Notes: generated by a model from the sequence alone, not told the origin. Numbered from the stretch's first letter, positions 15,158-31,960 are shown. The stretch is 64,000 bases of DNA from Candidatus Marinacidobacterales bacterium (GCA_965224085.1 CBDCYI010000009.1:480001-544000); one strand, 5' to 3'. Numbers and translations: made by a program.

Positions 15158-15963
15158 GGTATTGTCAAGTTGACGTTGAGCGAGCGAACCTATCGCGTCG
15201 AGCTGACTTCCTTTGCTCTCATCGGACGGCACAGGTTACCTCCTGCCAGACGATGAAAGCGCGGTCTCGTAGCTCCCGATGATGATGCGCTTGCAACAAA
15301 TGCCGTCCGACGCGAAAGAGATTTTGCACGAGTCCATGCACGGTCAAGAATCGTTGCGCCTGCCCAGGAGCTTTAAACTTCCGCATCTGTCGTTCCCGTT
15401 GTCGCGTCGGTTCGTGCGAGACTTCGGCTAGGTTGTTTCTGTACTGGTCAGTGTCGTGGACGACGGACGGCATGACCTCGCGGTGAGCGGCGCTGTAGCT
15501 TCTCAGTTTGTCGGTGACCAGCTGCCAGGGCGGGCGGCCTTGCCCCTTCAACAGCTTGCGGAAGAATCGTTTGGCGGCTTTCTGATCACGGCGAGGCTGG
15601 ACGAGGATATCGATTACATCACCATCTTGGTCTACCGCGCGCCAGAGGTATTGGCGTTCACCTTGTATCTTTATGAAGACCTCGTCCAGGTGCCATGTGT
15701 CACCGAGACGACCCTGCCGACGCTTCAGTCGCCGAGCGTATTCCGGCCCGAACTTAATGCACCACAGTCGGACCGCTTCGTAAGAAACCGTGATGCCTCG
15801 CTGAGCGAGCAACTCTTCGACGTTTCGAAAGCTCACGCAGAATCGGTGGTAGAGCCAGACGGCGTGGCTGATGATTTCCGGTGGAAATCGATAGCCGTGG
15901 TAGCTTGGCGCATCGGTCTTCATTGGACCATTCTGTCAGTCATCAGCTCAATTTGACAATACC
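15158..15963 (-). mobile_element. IS6-family element (transposase 15219-15923)
   Basis: TIRs GGTATTGTCAAGTTG / CAATTTGACAATACC; YRFP, WHLDE, LWRAVD, TDKL, NNLAE; no TSD. Confidence 0.92.
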
Positions 15964-24150: not shown

Positions 24151-24153
24151 GCC

Positions 24154-25499
24154 TGTCCTTCATCATTATTGATCCAGCGGGAATGGTACCGCTGGTGGCC
24201 CTACGACGAACGAAGAAACCCGGGTCGGCGCGCGCGGGAACTTGCCGAGATCACGCGATCAATGGGCCGCGGAGCTGGACAACGCAATCGCGAGGGACCC
24301 CAGCAATCGACGCGCAGCGACTAAACTGGCTCAGGCGGCGTCACGCCATTCGTAGCGGTGATGAAGCCCACCCACTCGCGGCAACGCGACGACTTTTGCG
24401 GTCGGTGATGGTCGGGGCGTGACGGGTCTTGAGTTCGGGGTGTCTTTGTCGAGACCCAAGTGGCAACGGTCCTCGTGGTAGTAGCTGATGTACAAGCGCA
24501 TGAGCCGGACGAGATGCCGCTCACTGAGGACAACTACATGCTCTAACATCTCGCGGCGGCAGTTTCCGATCCAGCGTTCGGCGGTACCGTTTTGCCAAAG
24601 GCTGCGATAAGAAATGCGAACAGGCTTTGTGCCCATGGCCCTGATGAACTCCACCACTGCAGGGCTGAAAATCGCGTCGCGGTCAAAGACCAAGTATCGT
24701 GGTGCCGTGTCGTATGGGAACGCCTCGCGCAGTTGTTGAATCACCCACGCTGACGTGGGGTTGTACGTCGCGTTGAAGTGCAAGATATGGCGACGGCCGT
24801 GCTCGATGACGAAGAAGCCGTACAGCAGCCGTAGCGACGCCGTCGGTACGGCGAACAGTTCCATCGCGGCGATGTCGTCCTTGTGGTTCCGCAAGAACGC
24901 AATCCATCGCTTCACTTCGTCGGGTTCGGCTCGGCGGCGCGGCATGTATCGCGACACCGTCATCTCGCTGACAACGAATCCGAGCTTCGTCAGCTCAGCG
25001 TGGATACGAGGTGCACCCCAGCCGTCTTGGGCCATCGTGCGGACGAGACGACGAATCTCGGCATCAATCCGAGGTCGACCTGGATAGCACGGACGGGAGA
25101 TCCGAGCCCAGTATCGGCGGAACCGATCTCGATTCCACCGGGCGACCGTGTCGGCGTTCACGATAACGAGCCGGCTCGCCCACGCTGGCCACGAGCTTCG
25201 GAGCGCAACCCAGAATGCTCGGTCCGTGTCCTCGAGCGGTGGCCGGGGGCGCTCCTTCTTCAACGCCGTAACTTGCAGCCGCAGGGCCAGGTTTTCAATC
25301 ACGAGGTCGGCTCGGCACCGACACATCGCCCGGATCGCACGGGCGCCGAGTGAGACGAGGAAGATGAGGACACGGAGCATGGCGGCAGAGTTTGCCGTCT
25401 CAAGACCGGGATCTCAAGCGGGAGATGCGCTCGTTGGCCGAGGCGTGAACGGTGCGTAAGTCCTTGATTTCAGGAGCGGACGGATATTGATGATGCACA
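24154..25499 (-). mobile_element. IS481-like rve element, copy 1 (transposase 24331-25380)
   Basis: Imperfect TIRs TGTCCTTCATCATTAT / TGTGCATCATCAATAT; WGAPRIHAEL, DRD, QNGTAER; IHF-like site near left end. Confidence 0.85.
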
Positions 25500-26137: not shown

Positions 26138-26583
26138 GGGGCTTATATCCATGACTAGACACGACAGAAGAATAGGAGAAGATGAAATATGCGGTCACTA
26201 AAAGGATGCTTCATGCTCGCCGTAGCTTTCGTTTTGACGCTCAACAACTTCTTCTACGCCGTCAATCCCGCTGCGGCCAAGCCCATATTCGATTGGATCG
26301 ACCCTTTCGCAGTCGTCGCCCTCGTACTCGTTTTCATCGAGAAAATCCTCGGTTCGATGCGGGGCGAAACCGAATGGCCTCGGCTCGTGGTGACGGTCCT
26401 GGTGGGGGCGCTGGTTCATTTATACGCCTACAATTACTTGGCGAAGATGGCGGGCAGTGGACTGGAGAGCGGGACCTTGTGGCTGGTTATGGTGCCGTTT
26501 GCGGTCTCCTTGCTCATCTATGAGGGCCTTTTTCTGATTCGTGAATCCAAATAGGGGCTTGTCTAGTCATGTATATAAGCCCC
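26138..26583. mobile_element. Non-autonomous mobile insertion cassette (446 bp)
   Basis: 24-bp TIRs (1 mismatch) GGGGCTTATATCCATGACTAGACA; 8-bp TSD TTTCAAAA at 26130-26137 and 26584-26591. Confidence 0.9.
26189..26554 (+). CDS. Small 4-TM membrane protein (cassette cargo)
   Basis: 121 aa with four hydrophobic segments; fills the cassette; AGGAG upstream. Confidence 0.7.
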   Translation: MRSLKGCFMLAVAFVLTLNNFFYAVNPAAAKPIFDWIDPFAVVALVLVFIEKILGSMRGETEWPRLVVTVLVGALVHLYAYNYLAKMAGSGLESGTLWLVMVPFAVSLLIYEGLFLIRESK

Positions 26584-26706
26584 TTTCAAAAGGGCCGAGT
26601 TTTGGCACAGGACGGGGTGCGTCCGCCGATTCGACCCCAAGATGTTGGCAACGCGATACGCTCAAGCCCCATTATCTAGCGGCCTGCTCCGAGCTTGAGC
26701 CCTCAA

Positions 26707-28190
26707 CTAATAAGAAACTCAGGGTGTAGCGTTGGCAAGAGGTGTGAGAGTGACGTCAAAACCGAGCTCCCTTAGGCGTCGTGTCATTCGTATTGTGAGC
26801 TGTTCCTTGTCACGTTGATGGAAGTAATCGGCACCCAGTTCCCGGTATGGAATCTCATTGTGGAGCATGTAGTAGACGGCGGTGATGATGGAGGCGGCGA
26901 CGGCGACGACAGCTTTCTTGGGGCCCCGACGAGATTTGAGCCGGAAGAACTGGGCACGCAGATAGCTGTCGCGCTTGCGGCTTGCCGCCCAAGCGGCTTG
27001 GACAAGAGCGGTCTTGAGCCATGGAGCCCCTTTGCGGGTTTTCTGAGAAAAGCGTTTACCGGCACTCTCATGAAGCCGTGGGCATAGACCGGCCCAAGAG
27101 CGAAGGTGTCCGGCCGTTGGGAATGCCGAGACATCGGGTCCGATCTCGGCGACGAGAATGGCCGCCGTGGCTTCACTGATGCCCGGGATCGTCACCAGAA
27201 GCTCGATGGCCGACCGAAAAGGGCACAGGCTCTCTGTGATACGGGATTCGAGCGCGCTCACTGAGGCTTCAAGCTGCTCGATATGATTGAGATGAAAACC
27301 CAACAGGAAACGATGATGGTCGGTAACGTAGCCCTCGAGCGCTGCGCTCAATTCCTGTTCAGTGGCTTTGAGTCGGCTCGAGCCCAGCTCACTCAGCTTG
27401 TGAGGGTCGCTTTCTCCCGCAATGATCGCTCGGAGAATCGCCCGCCCGCTTACTCCCAAAATCGTGCTAATCACGCTCGTCAATTTGATGTTCGCGTCTT
27501 CCAACGTCTTTTGAATTCGCTGGGTCTCCCGAGCGATTTCTCGAACGAACTGCTTTCGCGTTCGGGTCAGCTCTCGCAGTTCCTGGATCGGCGTTGGCGG
27601 AACGAAGCTAGCTCGAATGAGACCATGGGCAAGCAAATCCGCTATCCACAAGGCATCACTGATATCGCTCTTACGACCCGGCATGTTCTTGACGTGGGCC
27701 GGTTGTGCCAACACCAACTCAAAATGACCTTCGAGCACATGCCACACCGGCTTCCAATACACTCCGGTCGCTTCCATCGCTACAATCGTGCAACCGCACT
27801 GCCCCAGCCAATCCAACATTTCCAGCAATTCGCTCGTGGCCGTGCCGAACACACGCGTCTCGCGCACCACCTTCCGCTTCGTCGCTACCCGCACGCAAGC
27901 CGTAATCGATTTCTGGTGGACGTCCAATCCAGCGCATCGCTTATGAACCACTCTAATCGCAGCCTCCTTCACGTCGCACCGGCGTGGAGCCCACGAACTT
28001 GTAATCTAATAGACGCGCTCAACTATCCCAGCTGGAATAGAAAACGCAATTTGGGGTACGCGCAGGACTCCCAGCCAAACTTGACAACGGGCTCAGTCGC
28101 ACCAACGTTAAGCCGACCTCTGAGCCGGTGCCACCTTCACAGACTACCGCGTTTCATTTATTCGGGGTGACCGCCAGGCCGTGGAAAACT
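26707..28190 (-). mobile_element. IS110-family element (transposase 26719-27972) with 5' noncoding bridge-RNA region
   Basis: GLDVH, MEATG, RKSDISDA, TIPGI, ESAGK; duplicated CT core at 26707 and 28189. Confidence 0.9.
27975..28140 (-). ncRNA. Putative bridge RNA of IS110
   Basis: Contains TGTCAAG and CTTAAC (target match), TATTAG and AAATT (donor match). Confidence 0.6.
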
Positions 28191-28248
28191 TGACATGCCC
28201 CTGAGCGGCTTCAGCAAGGTGACGGTGGACGACGTCGCGGTCGCCCCC

Positions 28249-29238
28249 CTAGGGTTCATCGGTCGGCGCGGACGTGTTGATGTCTGGGTAGAGCCACGAG
28301 TGTTCGAGTCCGGCGTGTCGCTTGCCGTATCGTTCCGGTATGTTCTGTGTCCAGTTGCTGGGCAACGTCAGACAGCACGCCAGTAAAACAACGAGTACGA
28401 TTCTCTGTAACACGAAAGGCGCTTTTTTGGGCGGGGCTTCCACCTCCAGTGCCTCTTTGACACCACTTCGCAGCCGATCCAGGCGCCGAATGCGCGATCG
28501 GATCAAAAAAACGATACCGATCGACACCATGATGAGGTTCAGGGTCTGCCCGGTCCCGAGAGCCAGACGGTGAGTCGGATAGTCGCGAAACAGATCAATG
28601 AATACACGCAAGAACGCATACCAGAAGACGAAACGAGCTGCGGTTGCCCCCGGTGTGGGGTTCATCTTTCGAACACGGAGGAGGAAAGGCACCAGCAGAA
28701 GATTCTTGATGCCGTCATAGAGAACCACCGGATGCCGGATTCCAGCTGCGTCGGGAAACAGCACTCCCCACGGTACATCGGTGAGAGCACCCACGATCTG
28801 ACCGTCGATGAAGTTCCCGACCCTTCCCATTCCCATCAGAAACGAACCGGGGATCACGACTGCGTCGAACAGCGCGAGCAGGTCCTTTCGATAGAGCAAG
28901 GCGAAGGAGGTGACGGCTACAGTCGCTCCGAGAAGTACCCCGTGAGACGCCAGGCCCCCAAGCCAGTATGCCGGAATGAGGATAGGGTGCGCGCTGTAGA
29001 AGGGCCACTCGTCGAATGCGACTTCGATGAGACGCGCCCCGACCAAAACGCCCACCACGATGAAAAGGGTGAGGGTGTATACGTCTCTGGAAGTGAGTCC
29101 GAGCCGAAGCCTGTGGCGGCGCAGAAACAGATGCAAATGCAGGAATCCCAGCGAATAGCCCAACCCATACCACCAGAGATAGACGCCGCCCACTTCGGCA
29201 ATGATCGGGTCGACATTATGGACATAGGGTCCGAACAT
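28249..29238 (-). CDS. lgt: Prolipoprotein diacylglyceryl transferase homologue
   Basis: WYGL, GARL, GLASHG, GRVGNFIDG, PWG, RHP..LY, FR. Confidence 0.85.
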   Translation of the reverse strand: MFGPYVHNVDPIIAEVGGVYLWWYGLGYSLGFLHLHLFLRRHRLRLGLTSRDVYTLTLFIVVGVLVGARLIEVAFDEWPFYSAHPILIPAYWLGGLASHGVLLGATVAVTSFALLYRKDLLALFDAVVIPGSFLMGMGRVGNFIDGQIVGALTDVPWGVLFPDAAGIRHPVVLYDGIKNLLLVPFLLRVRKMNPTPGATAARFVFWYAFLRVFIDLFRDYPTHRLALGTGQTLNLIMVSIGIVFLIRSRIRRLDRLRSGVKEALEVEAPPKKAPFVLQRIVLVVLLACCLTLPSNWTQNIPERYGKRHAGLEHSWLYPDINTSAPTDEP

Positions 29239-29913
29239 CTTTTAAGCTCCCGCATGACATAGCTGTACGTCGTCAGAGTAATTCGGACAAAAGCGCCGTT
29301 TTTCTAAGAGACGAACGCGCCTACCCTACCCGGGCCATTCGTCAGAGGTTGTACGTCGGTCCTTTCTAGTCGTTGAGCAGCCGACAGACAAAGCGGATGC
29401 GTCCCTAGGTTCGTGGAAAAAGAACAGCGCACCTCCACTTCGTCATCAAGGTATCAGATCAAGCGGCGACCTCACCGCTAGCGAGAACCTCGGGCAGATG
29501 TTGGTAGCCATCGATGCGTCGTAGCTGAATCTGGCCAGAGGCAATAAGCGCAAAGAGCAAAGCGACAGCCCACTCCTCGGTGGTGAACGACGCCTGGGTC
29601 TTCGTCCGGCGTCGAAACTCGCGGTTGAGGTTCTCCAAAGCATTGGTTGTACGAATCGAGGTGCTTCCGCTATTAAGTGTTGGTGAGATAACGCTAAGAC
29701 TTTACGCTGCATTAACCCTAATCGCAAATAAACGTCACCGTGTCTGAGGTCTTTGGCCCCGTGAATAGCACCTTTTCCAGGTTCTGCATACACCGTGCAG
29801 AATCACCTATAGTGGCGGCGAGCGGGTGCCCCAGCACGAGCTTCTCGCCTGCGCCCAGTGCGGCTGTTTCGCGTTTCGTGCTTCGAAGATTTTGCGATTA
29901 GGGTTAAATTACT

Positions 29914-30268
29914 GCCTTGGTGCACAACTCGCGATCTCGGTCCACAATTGTCCTTTACTCACGGATTCGAGGTTCCCCATGAGCATTTTCAAACGCACTC
30001 AGCGGAAGTATGTGATGAAGGCCTATCGCGTGAGGAATTGGCGTGAATATGAGGCGGGGTCTACGCAACCGCGGGAGCCTGACCGTCTGGATCTCGCTCA
30101 CCGCCGGCAAGCTTGTGAACTGGGACGCGCCCCGGCCGAGGAGGAGGAAACCGGGCCGTCAACGCAAGTACTCGAACCACGCCATCGAGACGGCTGTCAC
30201 CCTGGGCATGGTGTTTCATCTGTCATCTAGGCAGAGCGAGGGATTGCTGCGATCGTTGTTCGCTCTGA
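29914..30268 (+). mobile_element. IS5-family left part
   Basis: Left TIR GCCTTGGTGCACAACTC (exact complement of 16906-16922); YRVRNWREY..RGSLTVW. Confidence 0.85.
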
Positions 30269-30502
30269 TGTCAAAACTTGGAGTCTCCGGAAAACCCGGT
30301 TCTCCTCTCGCAGGTAGTCGATCACATCCTGCTCCTGGCGGTTGAGCCAGCCAGCCAGAACGAGGAGTAGGAATTGCACGCCCTTGGCCCGGGCGCAAAC
30401 ACAGACACTAAGCTGCTGATTTGTTGTCTATTTCAAAAAGGGCCGAATTTTGGCACAGGACGGGATCGGTCAGTCGAGTTTTCATTAATTAAATCATCCA
30501 CC

Positions 30503-31848
30503 TGTCCTTCATCATTATTGATCCAGCGGGAATGGTACCGCTGGTGGTCCTACGGCGAACGAAGAAACCCGGGTCGGCGCGCGCGGGCACTTGCCGAGAT
30601 CACGCGATCAATGGGCCGCGGAGCTGGACAACGCAATCGCGAGGGACCCCAGCAATCGACGCGCAGCGACTAAACTGGCTCAGGCGGCGTCGCGCCATTC
30701 GTAGCGGTGGTGGAGCCCACCCACTCGCGGCAACGCGACGACTTTTGCGGTCGGTGATGGTCGGGGCGTGACGGGTCTTGAGTTCGGGGTGTTTTTGTCG
30801 AGACCCAAGTGGCAACGGTCCTCGTGGTAGTAGCTGATGTACAAGCGCATGAGCCGGATGAGATGCCGCTCACTGAGGACAACTACATGCTCTAACATCT
30901 CGCGGCGGCAGTTTCCGATCCAGCGTTCGGCGGTACCGTTTTGCCAAGGGCTGCGATAAGAAATGCGAACAGGCTTTGTGCCCATGGCCCTGATGAACTC
31001 CACCACTGCAGGGCTGAAAATCGCGTCGCGGGCAAAGACCAAGTATCGTGGTGCCGTGTCGTATGGGAATGCCTCGCGCAGTTGTTGAATCACCCACGCT
31101 GACGTGGGGTTGTACGTCGCGTTGAAGTGCAAGATATGGCGACGGCCGTGCTCGATGACAAAGAAGCCGTACAGCAGCCGTAGCGACGCCGTCGGTACGG
31201 CGAACAGATCCATCGCGGCGATGTCGTCCTTGCGGTTCCGCAAGAACGCAATCCATCGCTTCACTTCGTCGGGTTCGGCTCGGCGGCGCGGCATGTATCG
31301 CGACACCGTCATCTCGCTGACAACGAATCCGAGCTTCGTCAGCTCAGCGTGGATACGAGGTGCACCCCAGCCGTCTTGGGCCATCGTGCGGACGAGACAA
31401 CGAATCTCGGCATCAATCCGAGGTCGACCCGGATAGCGCGGACGGGAGATCCGGGCCCAGTATCGGCGGAACCGATCTCGATTCCACCGGGCGACCGTGT
31501 CGGCGTTCACGATAACGAGCCGGCTCGCCCACGCTGGCCACGAGCTTCGGAGCGCAACCCAGAATGCTCGGTCCGTGTCCTCGAGCGGTGGCCGGGGGCG
31601 CTCCTTCTTCAACGCCGTAACTTGCTGCCGCAGGGCCAGGTTTTCAATCACGAGGTCGGCTCGGCACCGACACATCGCCCGGATCGCACGGGCGCCGAGT
31701 GAGACGAGGAAGATGAGGACACGGAGCATGGCGGCAGAGTTTGCCGTCTCAAGACCGGGATCTCAAGCGGAAGATGCGCTCGTTGCCCGAGGCGTGAACG
31801 GTGCGTAAGTCCTTGATTTCAGGAGCGGACGGATATTGATGATGCACA
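30503..31848 (-). mobile_element. IS481-like rve element, copy 2 (transposase 30680-31729)
   Basis: Near-identical to 24154-25499. Confidence 0.85.
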
Positions 31849-31960
31849 GGCCGTCAGGCCGTGGAAAACTTGACAATACCCAGCTACCAGGTTTTCGATC
31901 ATAACGTTGAGCCTTCCCTGCGGCGAGAAACTACTCGCTAAATGTGATATGAACTATCGG

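What the first reader, a model, noticed from the sequence alone, without database searches (positions are those of the whole stretch)
26700..31880. IS110 whose bridge RNA appears programmed against IS6 terminal inverted repeats
Seen (minus strand): left junction GGCATGTCA-AG|TTTTCCACGGCC and right junction TTCTTATT-AG|TTGAGGG rebuild the target ATGTCAAGTTGAG, matching the IS6 TIRs here (GGTATTGTCAAGTTGAC at 15158; GGTATTGTCAAATTGAG at 15963). A second junction at 31851-31880 reads GGTATTGTCAAG|TTTTCCACGGCCTG, an exact IS6 TIR fused to the same IS110 end. The noncoding leader holds CTTAAC (28107-12, pairs GTTGAG with one wobble) and TGTCAAG (28080-86), then AAATT and TATTAG matching the donor. 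Known: bridge-RNA mechanism, and IS4321/IS5075 targeting Tn21 TIRs. Inference: an RNA-guided hyperparasite of IS6 (IS26-family) ends.
Basis: partly seen in the sequence, partly recalled or inferred. Interest (0 to 1): 0.78.

Follow-up and report, generated by a model that had tools for sequence, protein, structure and literature searches.

The report
IS110 element aimed at IS6-type ends
A small jumping gene of the IS110 kind carries a guide RNA whose target-reading letters match a motif inside the end repeats of another jumping gene (IS6 type), and it is mostly found inserted there: a new example of a known RNA-guided mechanism.

Summary
Window 26707-28188 (minus strand) is a 1482-bp IS110-family element, here called ISa, with an intact 410-aa DEDD transposase gene.

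Its upstream leader aligns with the leaders of 45 homologues into a two-loop RNA of the bridge-RNA type. In the first loop, the segment UGUCAAG (28080-28086) sits where, in 40 non-redundant homologues, the RNA repeats the 7 nt left of the element (192 of 240 positions identical; shuffles 71±7). CUUAAC (28107-28112) lies on the opposite side of that loop and is complementary to the right flank. In the second loop, UAUUAG (28006-28011) repeats the element's own right end.

Genome-wide, 21 of 25 left junctions carry TGTCAAG. In eight related genomes, 23 of 37 left junctions read GGTA(C/T)TGTCAAG, the outer half of the IS6-type terminal repeat.

The target is a ~9-bp motif, TGTCAAG|TT. About 45-58% of its genomic copies lie in IS6-type ends, and insertions follow that availability. 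Only 1 of 33 true IS6 left ends in this genome is occupied, so "hyperparasite" is not shown.

A second, unrelated IS110-family element targets the same repeat on the other strand.

Verdict: new member of a known kind.

The parts
26707..28188 (-). ISa: IS110-family insertion sequence, 1482 bp, counted with one copy of the AG core at its right end
   Evidence: The boundaries come from 25 left and 26 right junction rows in the genome. Homology among copies begins just before TTTTCC and ends at TTATTAG.
26719..27951 (-). Transposase gene, 410 aa, GTG start preceded by GAAGGAGG (27963-27970)
   Evidence: Pfam DEDD_Tnp_IS110 E 4.5e-28 and Transposase_20 E 2.1e-23. Match to the IS621 transposase 8wt6 at E 1.2e-10. 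The frame is open in 7 of 9 full copies.
27979..28128 (-). Predicted bridge RNA core, closed by CCGGC (28124-28128) pairing with GCCGG (27979-27983)
   Evidence: RNAalifold on 46 leaders gave 34 pairs, 23 of them with compensatory changes.
28070..28119 (-). Target-binding loop module: outer stem, 5' side GCUUAACG, inner hairpin UUGGUGC..AGCCCG, 3' side UUGUCAAGUU
28080..28086 (-). Long target guide UGUCAAG (5 nt plus the AG core). Same sense as the left flank, so it would pair with the opposite DNA strand
   Evidence: In 40 non-redundant homologues the five variable positions equal the flank in 34-39 of 40 cases. The total is 192 of 240 against 71±7 in 2000 shuffles, maximum 98. TGTCAAG is present at 21 of 25 left junctions.
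28107..28112 (-). Short target guide candidate CUUAAC, complementary to G|TTGAG of the right flank with one G-U pair
   Evidence: It lies on the 5' side of the same loop. Family-level complementarity to right flanks exceeds shuffles: 31 of 48 and 34 of 48 against 19.9 and 24.2, and run lengths in two registers. A relative's copy reads CUCAAC, a full Watson-Crick match. In element X the aligned positions GGUAC match its right flank G|TACC.
27986..28072 (-). Donor-binding loop module. The 5' side UACCCCAAAUUGCG (28045-28058) holds AAAUU; the 3' side is GAGCGCG-UCUAUUAG
28006..28013 (-). Donor guide UCUAUUAG, same sense as the right end CTTATTAG (6 of 8 identical here)
   Evidence: In 78 homologue rows the aligned 8-mer finds a 7-8 of 8 match just after the stop codon in 67. 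The mean is 7.18 against 5.63 with shuffled guides.
28189..28199 (-). Left flank GGCATGTCAAG: diverged outer half of an IS6-type end, including the AG core (28189-28190)
   Evidence: Variants GGCATTGTCAAG flank the same element in a related genome.
26620..26706 (-). Right flank TTGAGGGCTCAAGCTCGGAGC...: inner part of a short element with IS6-type ends, cut off at about 26619 by another repeat family
   Evidence: Uninterrupted copies read GGTATTGTCAAGTTGAGGTCTCAAGCTCGAAGC.... Two contigs of run X4 continue from 26708 into TGACAATACC, the empty-site form. The other repeat is family D7.
31869..31880 (-). Outer half of an IS6-type end, GGTATTGTCAAG
31849..31868 (-). 20-nt stub of an ISa left end, TTTTCCACGGCCTGACGGCC (the common sequence type of the left end)
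30501..31848 (-). rve-family IS (349-aa ORF 30680-31729) that cuts off the stub. A second copy lies at about 24152-25499
   Evidence: Alignment of the two copies, Pfam rve_3, census of its ends.
15158..15963 (-). IS6-family element carrying the target motif in one end (15158-15174)

Best explanation
ISa is an IS110-group insertion sequence that chooses its insertion site with an RNA encoded in its 237-nt left end.

Inferred mechanism (by homology with IS621):
- The RNA has two internal loops.
- In the first loop, UGUCAAG on the 3' side and CUUAAC on the 5' side read the two strands of the DNA target TGTCAAG|TT(GAG).
- In the second loop, UAUUAG reads the element's own right end, and a short segment (AAAUU) reads its left end.
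- The DEDD/serine recombinase exchanges strands at the shared AG.

Where the target lies: the motif is the inner part of the IS6-type terminal repeat GGTA(T/C)TGTCAAGTTGA. This repeat is carried by about 33 IS6 copies and by many short derivatives, so most usable sites, and most insertions, lie in such ends.

Tandem arrays: the left end starts with TT, so the left junction rebuilds TGTCAAG|TT. That explains the observed tandem arrays.

What is shown and what is inferred:
- Shown here: the anatomy, the covariation, and the flank census in nine genomes.
- Inferred: that the RNA is made, that it binds the protein, and that it guides recombination.
For: Protein domains. Similarity to the solved IS621 transposase.

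Structure: a two-loop consensus with 23 of 34 pairs compensatory.

Guide covariation:
- Long target guide: 192 of 240 identical against shuffles of 71±7.
- Donor guide against the right end: mean 7.18 of 8 against 5.63.
- Short target guide against the right flank. A CUCAAC variant in a relative.

Flanks:
- TGTCAAG at 21 of 25 left junctions, with unrelated sequence further out.
- Of 17 intact right junctions not followed by element Y, 15 start with TT, 10 with TTG and 7 with TTGA.
- In eight related genomes 37 left junctions were examined: 23 exact GGTA(C/T)TGTCAAG, 3 in ends already holding element X, and 11 near variants.

Unoccupied sites:
- 47 copies of TGTCAAGTTGA in the genome.
- 28 intact IS6 left ends.
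- The empty-site form in contigs of run X4.

One IS6 copy (contig C4, about 169779) has ISa exactly between GGTATTGTCAAG and TTGACGTTGAGCG, 53 bp from its transposase gene.

Natural tandems of right end|left end occur at C4:29375 and in a relative.
Against: - No RNA data: all 24 runs listed are kept as contigs only.
- No sigma-70-like promoter was found in the element or across a natural right-end/left-end junction.
- The single-sequence fold of the leader is no better than shuffles (z 0.15).
- Rfam has no matching family.
- CUUAAC does not sit in the commonest register of the family, and the base opposite the core A is G, a mismatch.
- The donor guide matches only 6 of 8 here.
- The long guides lie on the 3' side of the loops, whereas passages of Durrant et al. 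place them on the 5' side for IS621.
- A homologue with the same guide, L099, is not in an IS6-type end.
- Insertions follow motif availability, so nothing shows selection for IS6 as such.
Confidence: 0.85

Rival explanations
1. Safe-harbour by abundance. ISa reads only a ~9-bp motif. Its presence in IS6-type ends reflects only that these repeats hold most copies of the motif. There is no adaptation to IS6 and no effect on it.
For: - The guide position before UGUCAAG does not covary (7 of 40), and nothing reads GGTA.
- 8 of 26 junctions in this genome lack any IS6-like context.
- The share of junctions in exact IS6-type ends (23 of 37) is close to the share of TGTCAAGTT copies in such ends in five relatives (353 of 604).
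- 1 of 33 IS6 left ends is occupied.
- L099 has the same guide elsewhere.
Against: This is a nuance of the main reading rather than a contradiction of it.
- A guide that matches a multi-copy repeat across at least nine genomes is the usual sign of an evolved target, as with REP- and Tn21-end-targeting relatives.
- A second IS110-type element with different guides hits the same repeat.
- CUUAAC extends the match to TTGAG, beyond the 9 bp.
Confidence: 0.45
2. Passenger spread. Many junctions of the type GGTA(C/T)TGTCAAG|ISa arose not by separate targeted insertions. Instead, IS6-type elements that already carried ISa or its miniature moved as composites.
For: - After insertion the first 14 bp of the end are unchanged (GGTATTGTCAAGTT), because the ISa left end starts with TT.
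- For element X, 14 of 22 same-length IS6 copies carry it at the other end with different outer flanks, mostly within one SNP haplotype.
Against: - Right flanks of ISa differ in kind: IS6 proper, several short elements, and unique DNA.
- Only one IS6::ISa composite exists in this genome.
- Non-repeat sites share only TGTCAAG.
- Guide-flank covariation across the family shows targeted insertion.
Confidence: 0.2
3. TGTCAAG, or GG.ATGTCAAGTTTTCC, is simply part of one element's own terminus. It is either the IS110 end or an IS6 end, and the likeness to a split IS6 end is coincidental.
For: All copies share TGTCAAG next to TTTTCC, so copy comparison alone cannot place the boundary.
Against: - Uninterrupted TGTCAAGTTGA is present 47 times. 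Intact IS6 ends read GGTATTGTCAAG directly joined to TTGACG.
- An empty-site contig exists.
- In 40 homologues the 7 nt left of the element differ between elements and match each element's own RNA loop.
- The right junctions carry the other half of the repeat.
Confidence: 0.02

Closest known systems
IS621 and related IS110-group bridge-RNA elements (Durrant et al. 2024, PMC11208160, passages read; Hiraizumi et al. 2024, PMC11208158, passages read)
   Same: - The same two protein domains.
- A long non-coding left end and a short right end.
- A two-loop RNA in which the first loop matches the target and the second the element's ends.
- A dinucleotide core shared by target and donor.
- A short (about 4-nt) guide on one side of the loop and a 7-9-nt guide on the other.
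   Different: - The proteins are only distantly alike: E 1.2e-10, C-terminal domain only.
- The core reads AG in the transposase sense.
- The long guides are on the 3' side of both loops, not the 5' side.
- The natural target is a transposon end, not a REP sequence.
- I could not check from the text seen how IS621's left/right frame relates to its ends. Whether this is a true mirror arrangement is therefore open.
IS4321 / IS5075 (IS1111 group), which target the terminal repeats of Tn21-family transposons (Partridge and Hall 2003; seen only as a reference entry, content recalled)
   Same: A DEDD-transposase IS that inserts at one fixed position and orientation inside the terminal inverted repeat of another transposable element.
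   Different: - Those are IS1111-group elements, with a long right end and subterminal inverted repeats. ISa is IS110-group, with a long left end.
- The host element there is Tn3-family with 38-bp ends. Here it is IS6-type with about 17-bp ends.
ISPpu9 / ISPpu10 / ISPa11 (REP-targeting IS110-family elements; abstracts, passages)
   Same: The target is a short multi-copy genomic repeat, and there are many unoccupied sites per genome.
   Different: The repeat here is itself the end of a mobile element.

Membership tests
IS110 family, IS110 group (bridge-RNA elements) | DEDD (RuvC-like) N-terminal domain plus the IS116/IS110/IS902 C-terminal domain | tested here: met
   PF01548 E 4.5e-28 and PF02371 E 2.1e-23. 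Match to the IS621 transposase 8wt6.
IS110 family, IS110 group (bridge-RNA elements) | Long non-coding left end upstream of the gene, short right end | tested here: met
   The left end runs 28188->27952 (237 nt). The right end is 12 nt after the stop codon, 26718->26707.
IS110 family, IS110 group (bridge-RNA elements) | No terminal inverted repeats and no target duplication; one dinucleotide core shared by both junctions | tested here: met
   AG precedes the left end and ends the right end in ISa and in nearly all homologues. The ends TTTTCCACGG and ...TTTCTTATTAG are not inverted repeats (direct reading).
IS110 family, IS110 group (bridge-RNA elements) | Conserved RNA structure with two internal loops | tested here: met
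   46 sequences, 34 pairs, 23 with compensatory changes.
IS110 family, IS110 group (bridge-RNA elements) | Loop nucleotides covary with target flanks and with the element's ends | tested here: met
IS110 family, IS110 group (bridge-RNA elements) | Loop polarity and core as in IS621: 8-9-nt guide on the 5' side, CT core | tested here: not met
   The long guides are on the 3' side, and the core is AG in the transposase sense. The IS621 description comes from passages.
IS110 family, IS110 group (bridge-RNA elements) | Circular intermediate whose junction drives the RNA; the RNA binds the recombinase | not testable with these tools
   Only contigs were available. Promoter scans were negative.
IS6 family (the targeted element) | DDE transposase of the IS240/IS26 type, about 234 aa, in an element of about 0.8 kb | tested here: met
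   PF13610 E 1.1e-37, 234 aa, 806 bp. About 33 copies in the genome.
IS6 family (the targeted element) | Short terminal inverted repeats starting with GG | tested here: met
   GGTATTGTCAAGTTGAC and GGTATTGTCAAATTGAG, 15 of 17 identical.
IS6 family (the targeted element) | 8-bp target duplication | tested here: inconclusive
   The 8 nt on the two sides of the window copy differ. That such elements often lack duplications after cointegrate resolution is recalled, not tested.
IS1111 group (IS4321/IS5075-like end-targeting elements) | Long right end carrying the guide RNA; subterminal inverted repeats | tested here: not met
   The right end is 12 nt and the RNA is in the left end.

The most novel reading that the evidence does not exclude
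IS6-type terminal repeats in this bacterial lineage are a shared landing pad for at least two independent bridge-RNA elements. ISa enters at GGTATTGTCAAG|TT on one strand. Element X enters at GGTA|CT on the other strand. Their RNA loops are arranged as a mirror image of IS621 (long guide on the 3' side, AG core). Both insertions keep the outermost bases of the repeat: 14 bp for ISa. The IS6 or its miniature may therefore stay mobile and carry the IS110 element along. That would be hitch-hiking, not just a safe harbour or sabotage.
Probability: 0.2. Interest if true: 0.7.

Novelty: new member of a known kind. Interest (0 to 1): 0.5.

Why it matters
- It adds a natural case in which an IS110-group bridge RNA is matched to the end of another insertion sequence, here an IS6-type element. 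The match is documented by guide-flank covariation and by about 60 junctions in nine genomes.
- The subfamily offers a second loop layout for comparison with IS621: about 550 relatives matched in the genome collection, with an AG core and the long guide on the 3' side.
- The locus also shows how site-specific elements stack on one another. Two IS110-type elements sit on the two ends of one IS6 copy, there are miniature derivatives, and tandems arise from a self-regenerating target.
- This helps in reading IS-dense regions and in predicting targets from leader sequences.

Tried and rejected
- Rfam search of 26600-28300 at E up to 10 found only two chance-level hits.
- A single-sequence fold of the whole leader gave z 0.15 and was uninformative.
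- First attempts to place the short target guide with fixed offsets gave weak signals. Two registers had to be allowed.
- Promoter scans of the element and of a natural tandem junction found nothing.
- Self-insertion into the copy of TGTCAAGTT inside the RNA gene: none seen. Of the 13 left-end rows checked, one was full-length. The other 12 lose ungapped homology for other reasons. In three, another IS follows directly: repeat family Z in L011 and L116, and an IS6 copy in L129.
- A fixed target for the rve-family IS in the ISa left end: only 2 of 7 of its ends abut the 20-nt stub. The other side of the window copy does not continue ISa. The history of the second junction is therefore not resolved.
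- An idea that the core is TT rather than AG was rejected. In homologues the right flank does not repeat the first two bases of the left end.
- Public runs: all are contigs, so there is no evidence on expression or circles.
- Literature searches listed no paper describing an IS110-family element that targets IS6-family ends. This covers only the held library. Supplementary Data 2 of Durrant et al. lists natural target motifs and may bear on this claim.
- Genome G027 is marked unpublished.

Full report
WHAT IS THERE

The window is G000:C9:480001-544000 and is dense in insertion sequences.

On the minus strand, 26707-28188 is a 1482-bp element, here called ISa.
- Its 410-aa ORF (26719-27951, GTG start after GAAGGAGG) has the two IS110-family domains.
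- The ORF matches the solved IS621 transposase distantly.
- The best annotated relatives are 'IS110 family transposase' at no more than 57% identity.
- The closest relatives in the species collection are 53-65% identical and come from several phyla.

The IS6 copy at 15158-15963 has a DDE_Tnp_IS240 transposase. Its ends are GGTATTGTCAAGTTGAC and GGTATTGTCAAATTGAG.

COPIES AND BOUNDARIES

The genome holds:
- nine full or nearly full copies at 98-100% identity, seven with an open 410-aa frame;
- one 3' half;
- about 14 places with a miniature, roughly 155 bp, made of the first 75 nt and the last 80 nt.

Left junctions. I examined 25 rows.
- 21 carry TGTCAAG directly before TTTTCC.
- One has CGTCAAG, one is a right-end|left-end tandem, one is rearranged and one is a diverged fragment.
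- Further out the flanks are unrelated, except for two recurring contexts: GGTA(T/C) directly upstream, or the end of a second element (X, described below).

With the window's 20-nt stub added, the 26 left junctions divide as follows:
- 6 exact GGTA(T/C)TGTCAAG;
- 5 near variants;
- 4 X-type;
- 8 with no such context;
- 3 not informative.

Right junctions. Twenty rows have an intact right end. Three are followed at once by another element (Y). Of the other 17, 15 start with TT, 10 with TTG and 7 with TTGA.

Putting the two halves together gives TGTCAAG|TTGA(C/G), the inner part of the IS6-type end.

One IS6 copy, on contig C4, has ISa exactly there, 53 bp from its transposase gene. That same copy carries the miniature of X in its other end.

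THE RNA

I aligned the leaders of 78 homologue loci and folded 46 non-redundant ones.

The consensus has these parts:
- a terminal hairpin in the first 25 nt;
- a closing stem (CCGGC/GCCGG);
- two stem-loops, each with an internal loop.
23 of 34 pairs show compensatory changes.

First loop, 3' side. This side reads CCCG-N-NNNNN-AG.
- In 40 non-redundant homologues with a clean flank, the five N plus AG equal the 7 nt left of each element.
- Per position this is 34-39 of 40. The total is 192 of 240, against 71±7 in shuffles with a maximum of 98 in 2000.
- The first N does not match (7 of 40).
- For ISa this guide is UGUCAAG (28080-28086), exactly the invariant part of its flanks.

Second loop, 3' side. 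This side reads GAGCRCG-NNNNNN-AG and repeats the last 8 nt of each element's right end.
- 67 of 78 rows match at 7-8 of 8.
- The mean is 7.18 against 5.63 with shuffled guides.
- ISa has UCUAUUAG against CTTATTAG, 6 of 8.

First loop, 5' side. This side is complementary to the right flank.
- With the register set by the last CU, the first two flank positions pair in 31 and 34 of 48 rows, against 19.9 and 24.2 in shuffles.
- Allowing two registers, mean run lengths exceed nearly all shuffles. Several members have runs of 6-8.
- ISa's CUUAAC (28107-28112) pairs with G|TTGAG in the same register as L034.
- A relative's copy has CUCAAC, which replaces the G-U pair with G-C.

TGTCAAG and TATTAG are firmly placed, CTTAAC moderately, and AAATT only by position.

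DIFFERENCE FROM IS621

Passages of Durrant et al. [quoted passage not shown]

Here the long guides are on the 3' side, and the shared dinucleotide reads AG in the transposase sense. Read on the other strand, the core is CT and the strand logic equals that of IS621. The element's left end is then joined to the 'right' target half.

I could not verify from the text how IS621's frame relates to its ends. I therefore report this as a difference in layout and not as a proven inversion.

IS IT AIMED AT IS6 ENDS?

Related genomes. In eight of them the same element (92-99% identity) has 37 non-tandem left junctions that I read.
- 23 are exact GGTA(C/T)TGTCAAG with unrelated sequence upstream.
- 3 are X-type.
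- 11 are near variants.
- Right flanks there are IS6 proper (L149) or short elements with IS6-type ends (L111, L124, L146, L151).

Public contigs. Contigs from four public runs, labelled as four organisms, hold the element at about 99% identity. Two contigs of X4 show the uninterrupted repeat...CCCTCAACT|TGACAATACC. These are contigs, and one run may be the source of the window.

Availability of the motif. The RNA reads about 9 bp.
- In this genome TGTCAAGTT occurs 99 times. That count includes the occupied junctions and one internal copy in each full element's RNA gene. 45 of the 99 are preceded by GGTA(T/C).
- In five relatives 353 of 604 copies are so preceded. The reversed control pattern gives 112 and 0.
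- The share of insertions in IS6-type ends (62%) therefore matches availability (58%).

Occupancy. Only 1 of 33 true IS6 left ends is occupied here, and 28 are intact.

Other points.
- The other IS6 end has AAA instead of AAG, so it lacks the AG core.
- A homologue with the same guide (L099) sits in unrelated DNA.

My reading: the guide is matched to a motif whose main carrier is the IS6-type end. This parallels REP-targeting or Tn21-end-targeting relatives. Selectivity for the repeat beyond the motif, and any cost to IS6, are not shown.

THE SECOND JUNCTION

Positions 31869-31880 are the outer repeat half, and 31849-31868 are the first 20 nt of an ISa left end. The rve-family IS starts at 31848.

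The far side of that IS does not continue ISa. The same 20-nt stub abuts the other end of another rve-IS copy on C4. The junction is thus a relic of an ISa, or miniature, insertion into an IS6-type end, followed by further rearrangement.

CONSEQUENCE OF THE SEQUENCE

The left end starts with TT, so the left junction reads TGTCAAG|TT again. It is therefore a target for a further insertion. This accounts for the right-end|left-end tandems at C4:29375, in L152 and in an X4 contig.

The first 14 bp of the interrupted repeat are also unchanged. Whether this leaves the IS6-type element mobile is untested.

NOVELTY

RNA-guided IS110 elements are known, and so are DEDD elements that target transposon ends. 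In three searches of the held library I found no report of an IS110-group element matched to IS6-family ends. Supplements could not be seen.

I file ISa as a new member of a known kind, with an unverified variant loop layout.

Noticed in passing
G000:C9:576964-578651 (locus L158); about 33 places in the genome: Element X is a second IS110-family element.
- It encodes a 469-aa DEDD transposase, 33% identical to ISa's. A miniature of about 65-80 bp, X1, also exists.
- Its left junction is ...TTGACAG|CAATGG and its right junction ...CGAAAG|TACC.
- The rebuilt target is therefore GGTA|CT|GTCAA(A/G)TTGA: the same IS6-type end, on the other strand and 7 bp further out.
- Its leader aligns with ISa's. 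It carries UUUGACAG and GGUAC at the two target-guide positions and UUCGAAAG at the donor-guide position.
- 16 of 26 IS6 right ends carry X or X1.
- Most such copies share one SNP haplotype, which also includes copies with an intact end. Composite spread and repeated insertion both remain possible.
   Followed up: partly
about 14 places, e.g. G000:C9:26865-27010, C4:1208565-1208712: Miniature ISa of about 155 bp, made of the first 75 nt and the last 80 nt, 80-97% identical to ISa. It lacks the RNA loops and the gene, and it sits at the same kind of target. It is presumably moved in trans. It also occurs in related genomes.
   Followed up: partly
38 places, e.g. G000:C9:27010-27549; none inside the finding's span: Element Y is about 540 bp, starts TGTCTCTTCCGGGGATGG and ends GGTGGTTGTTCAC. 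No Pfam match was found for the 213-aa frame at L159:172-813, which overlaps it. Its left flank ends in TTAG in 36 of 38 rows, and its right flank mostly starts with TT. It therefore lands exactly on ISa right junctions (TTATTAG|TT) in four places.
   Followed up: partly
window 26579-26619, 30427-30467 and seven more places (families D2 and D7): A repeat ending ...GGCCGAGTTTTGGCACAGGACGGGG is the end of another element, Z. It cuts off the short IS6-type element right of ISa. In relatives it cuts ISa left ends after 26, about 96 or about 150 nt.
   Followed up: no
L129 (G002:C1, about 280600): The reverse case: an IS6 copy (GGTATTGTCAAGTTGACGTTGAGCG...) is inserted inside an ISa left end, just after the target guide.
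   Followed up: no
alignment rows: In the family, the two RNA bases after the AG of the long target guide usually equal the first two bases of the element's own left end (TT, TC, TG, AT), not the right flank. This would be a handshake-like contact with the donor. It is unexplained here.
   Followed up: no
G033:C3:4290622-4292116 (L111): A genome of another family in the same order holds ISa at 99% identity, while same-genus genomes hold only fragments or none. This suggests recent horizontal spread.
   Followed up: no
window 28249-29238 (-): The prolipoprotein diacylglyceryl transferase gene (lgt, Pfam LGT E 1.8e-42) ends 50 nt from the ISa left junction. ISa lies downstream of it and does not interrupt it.
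   Followed up: no
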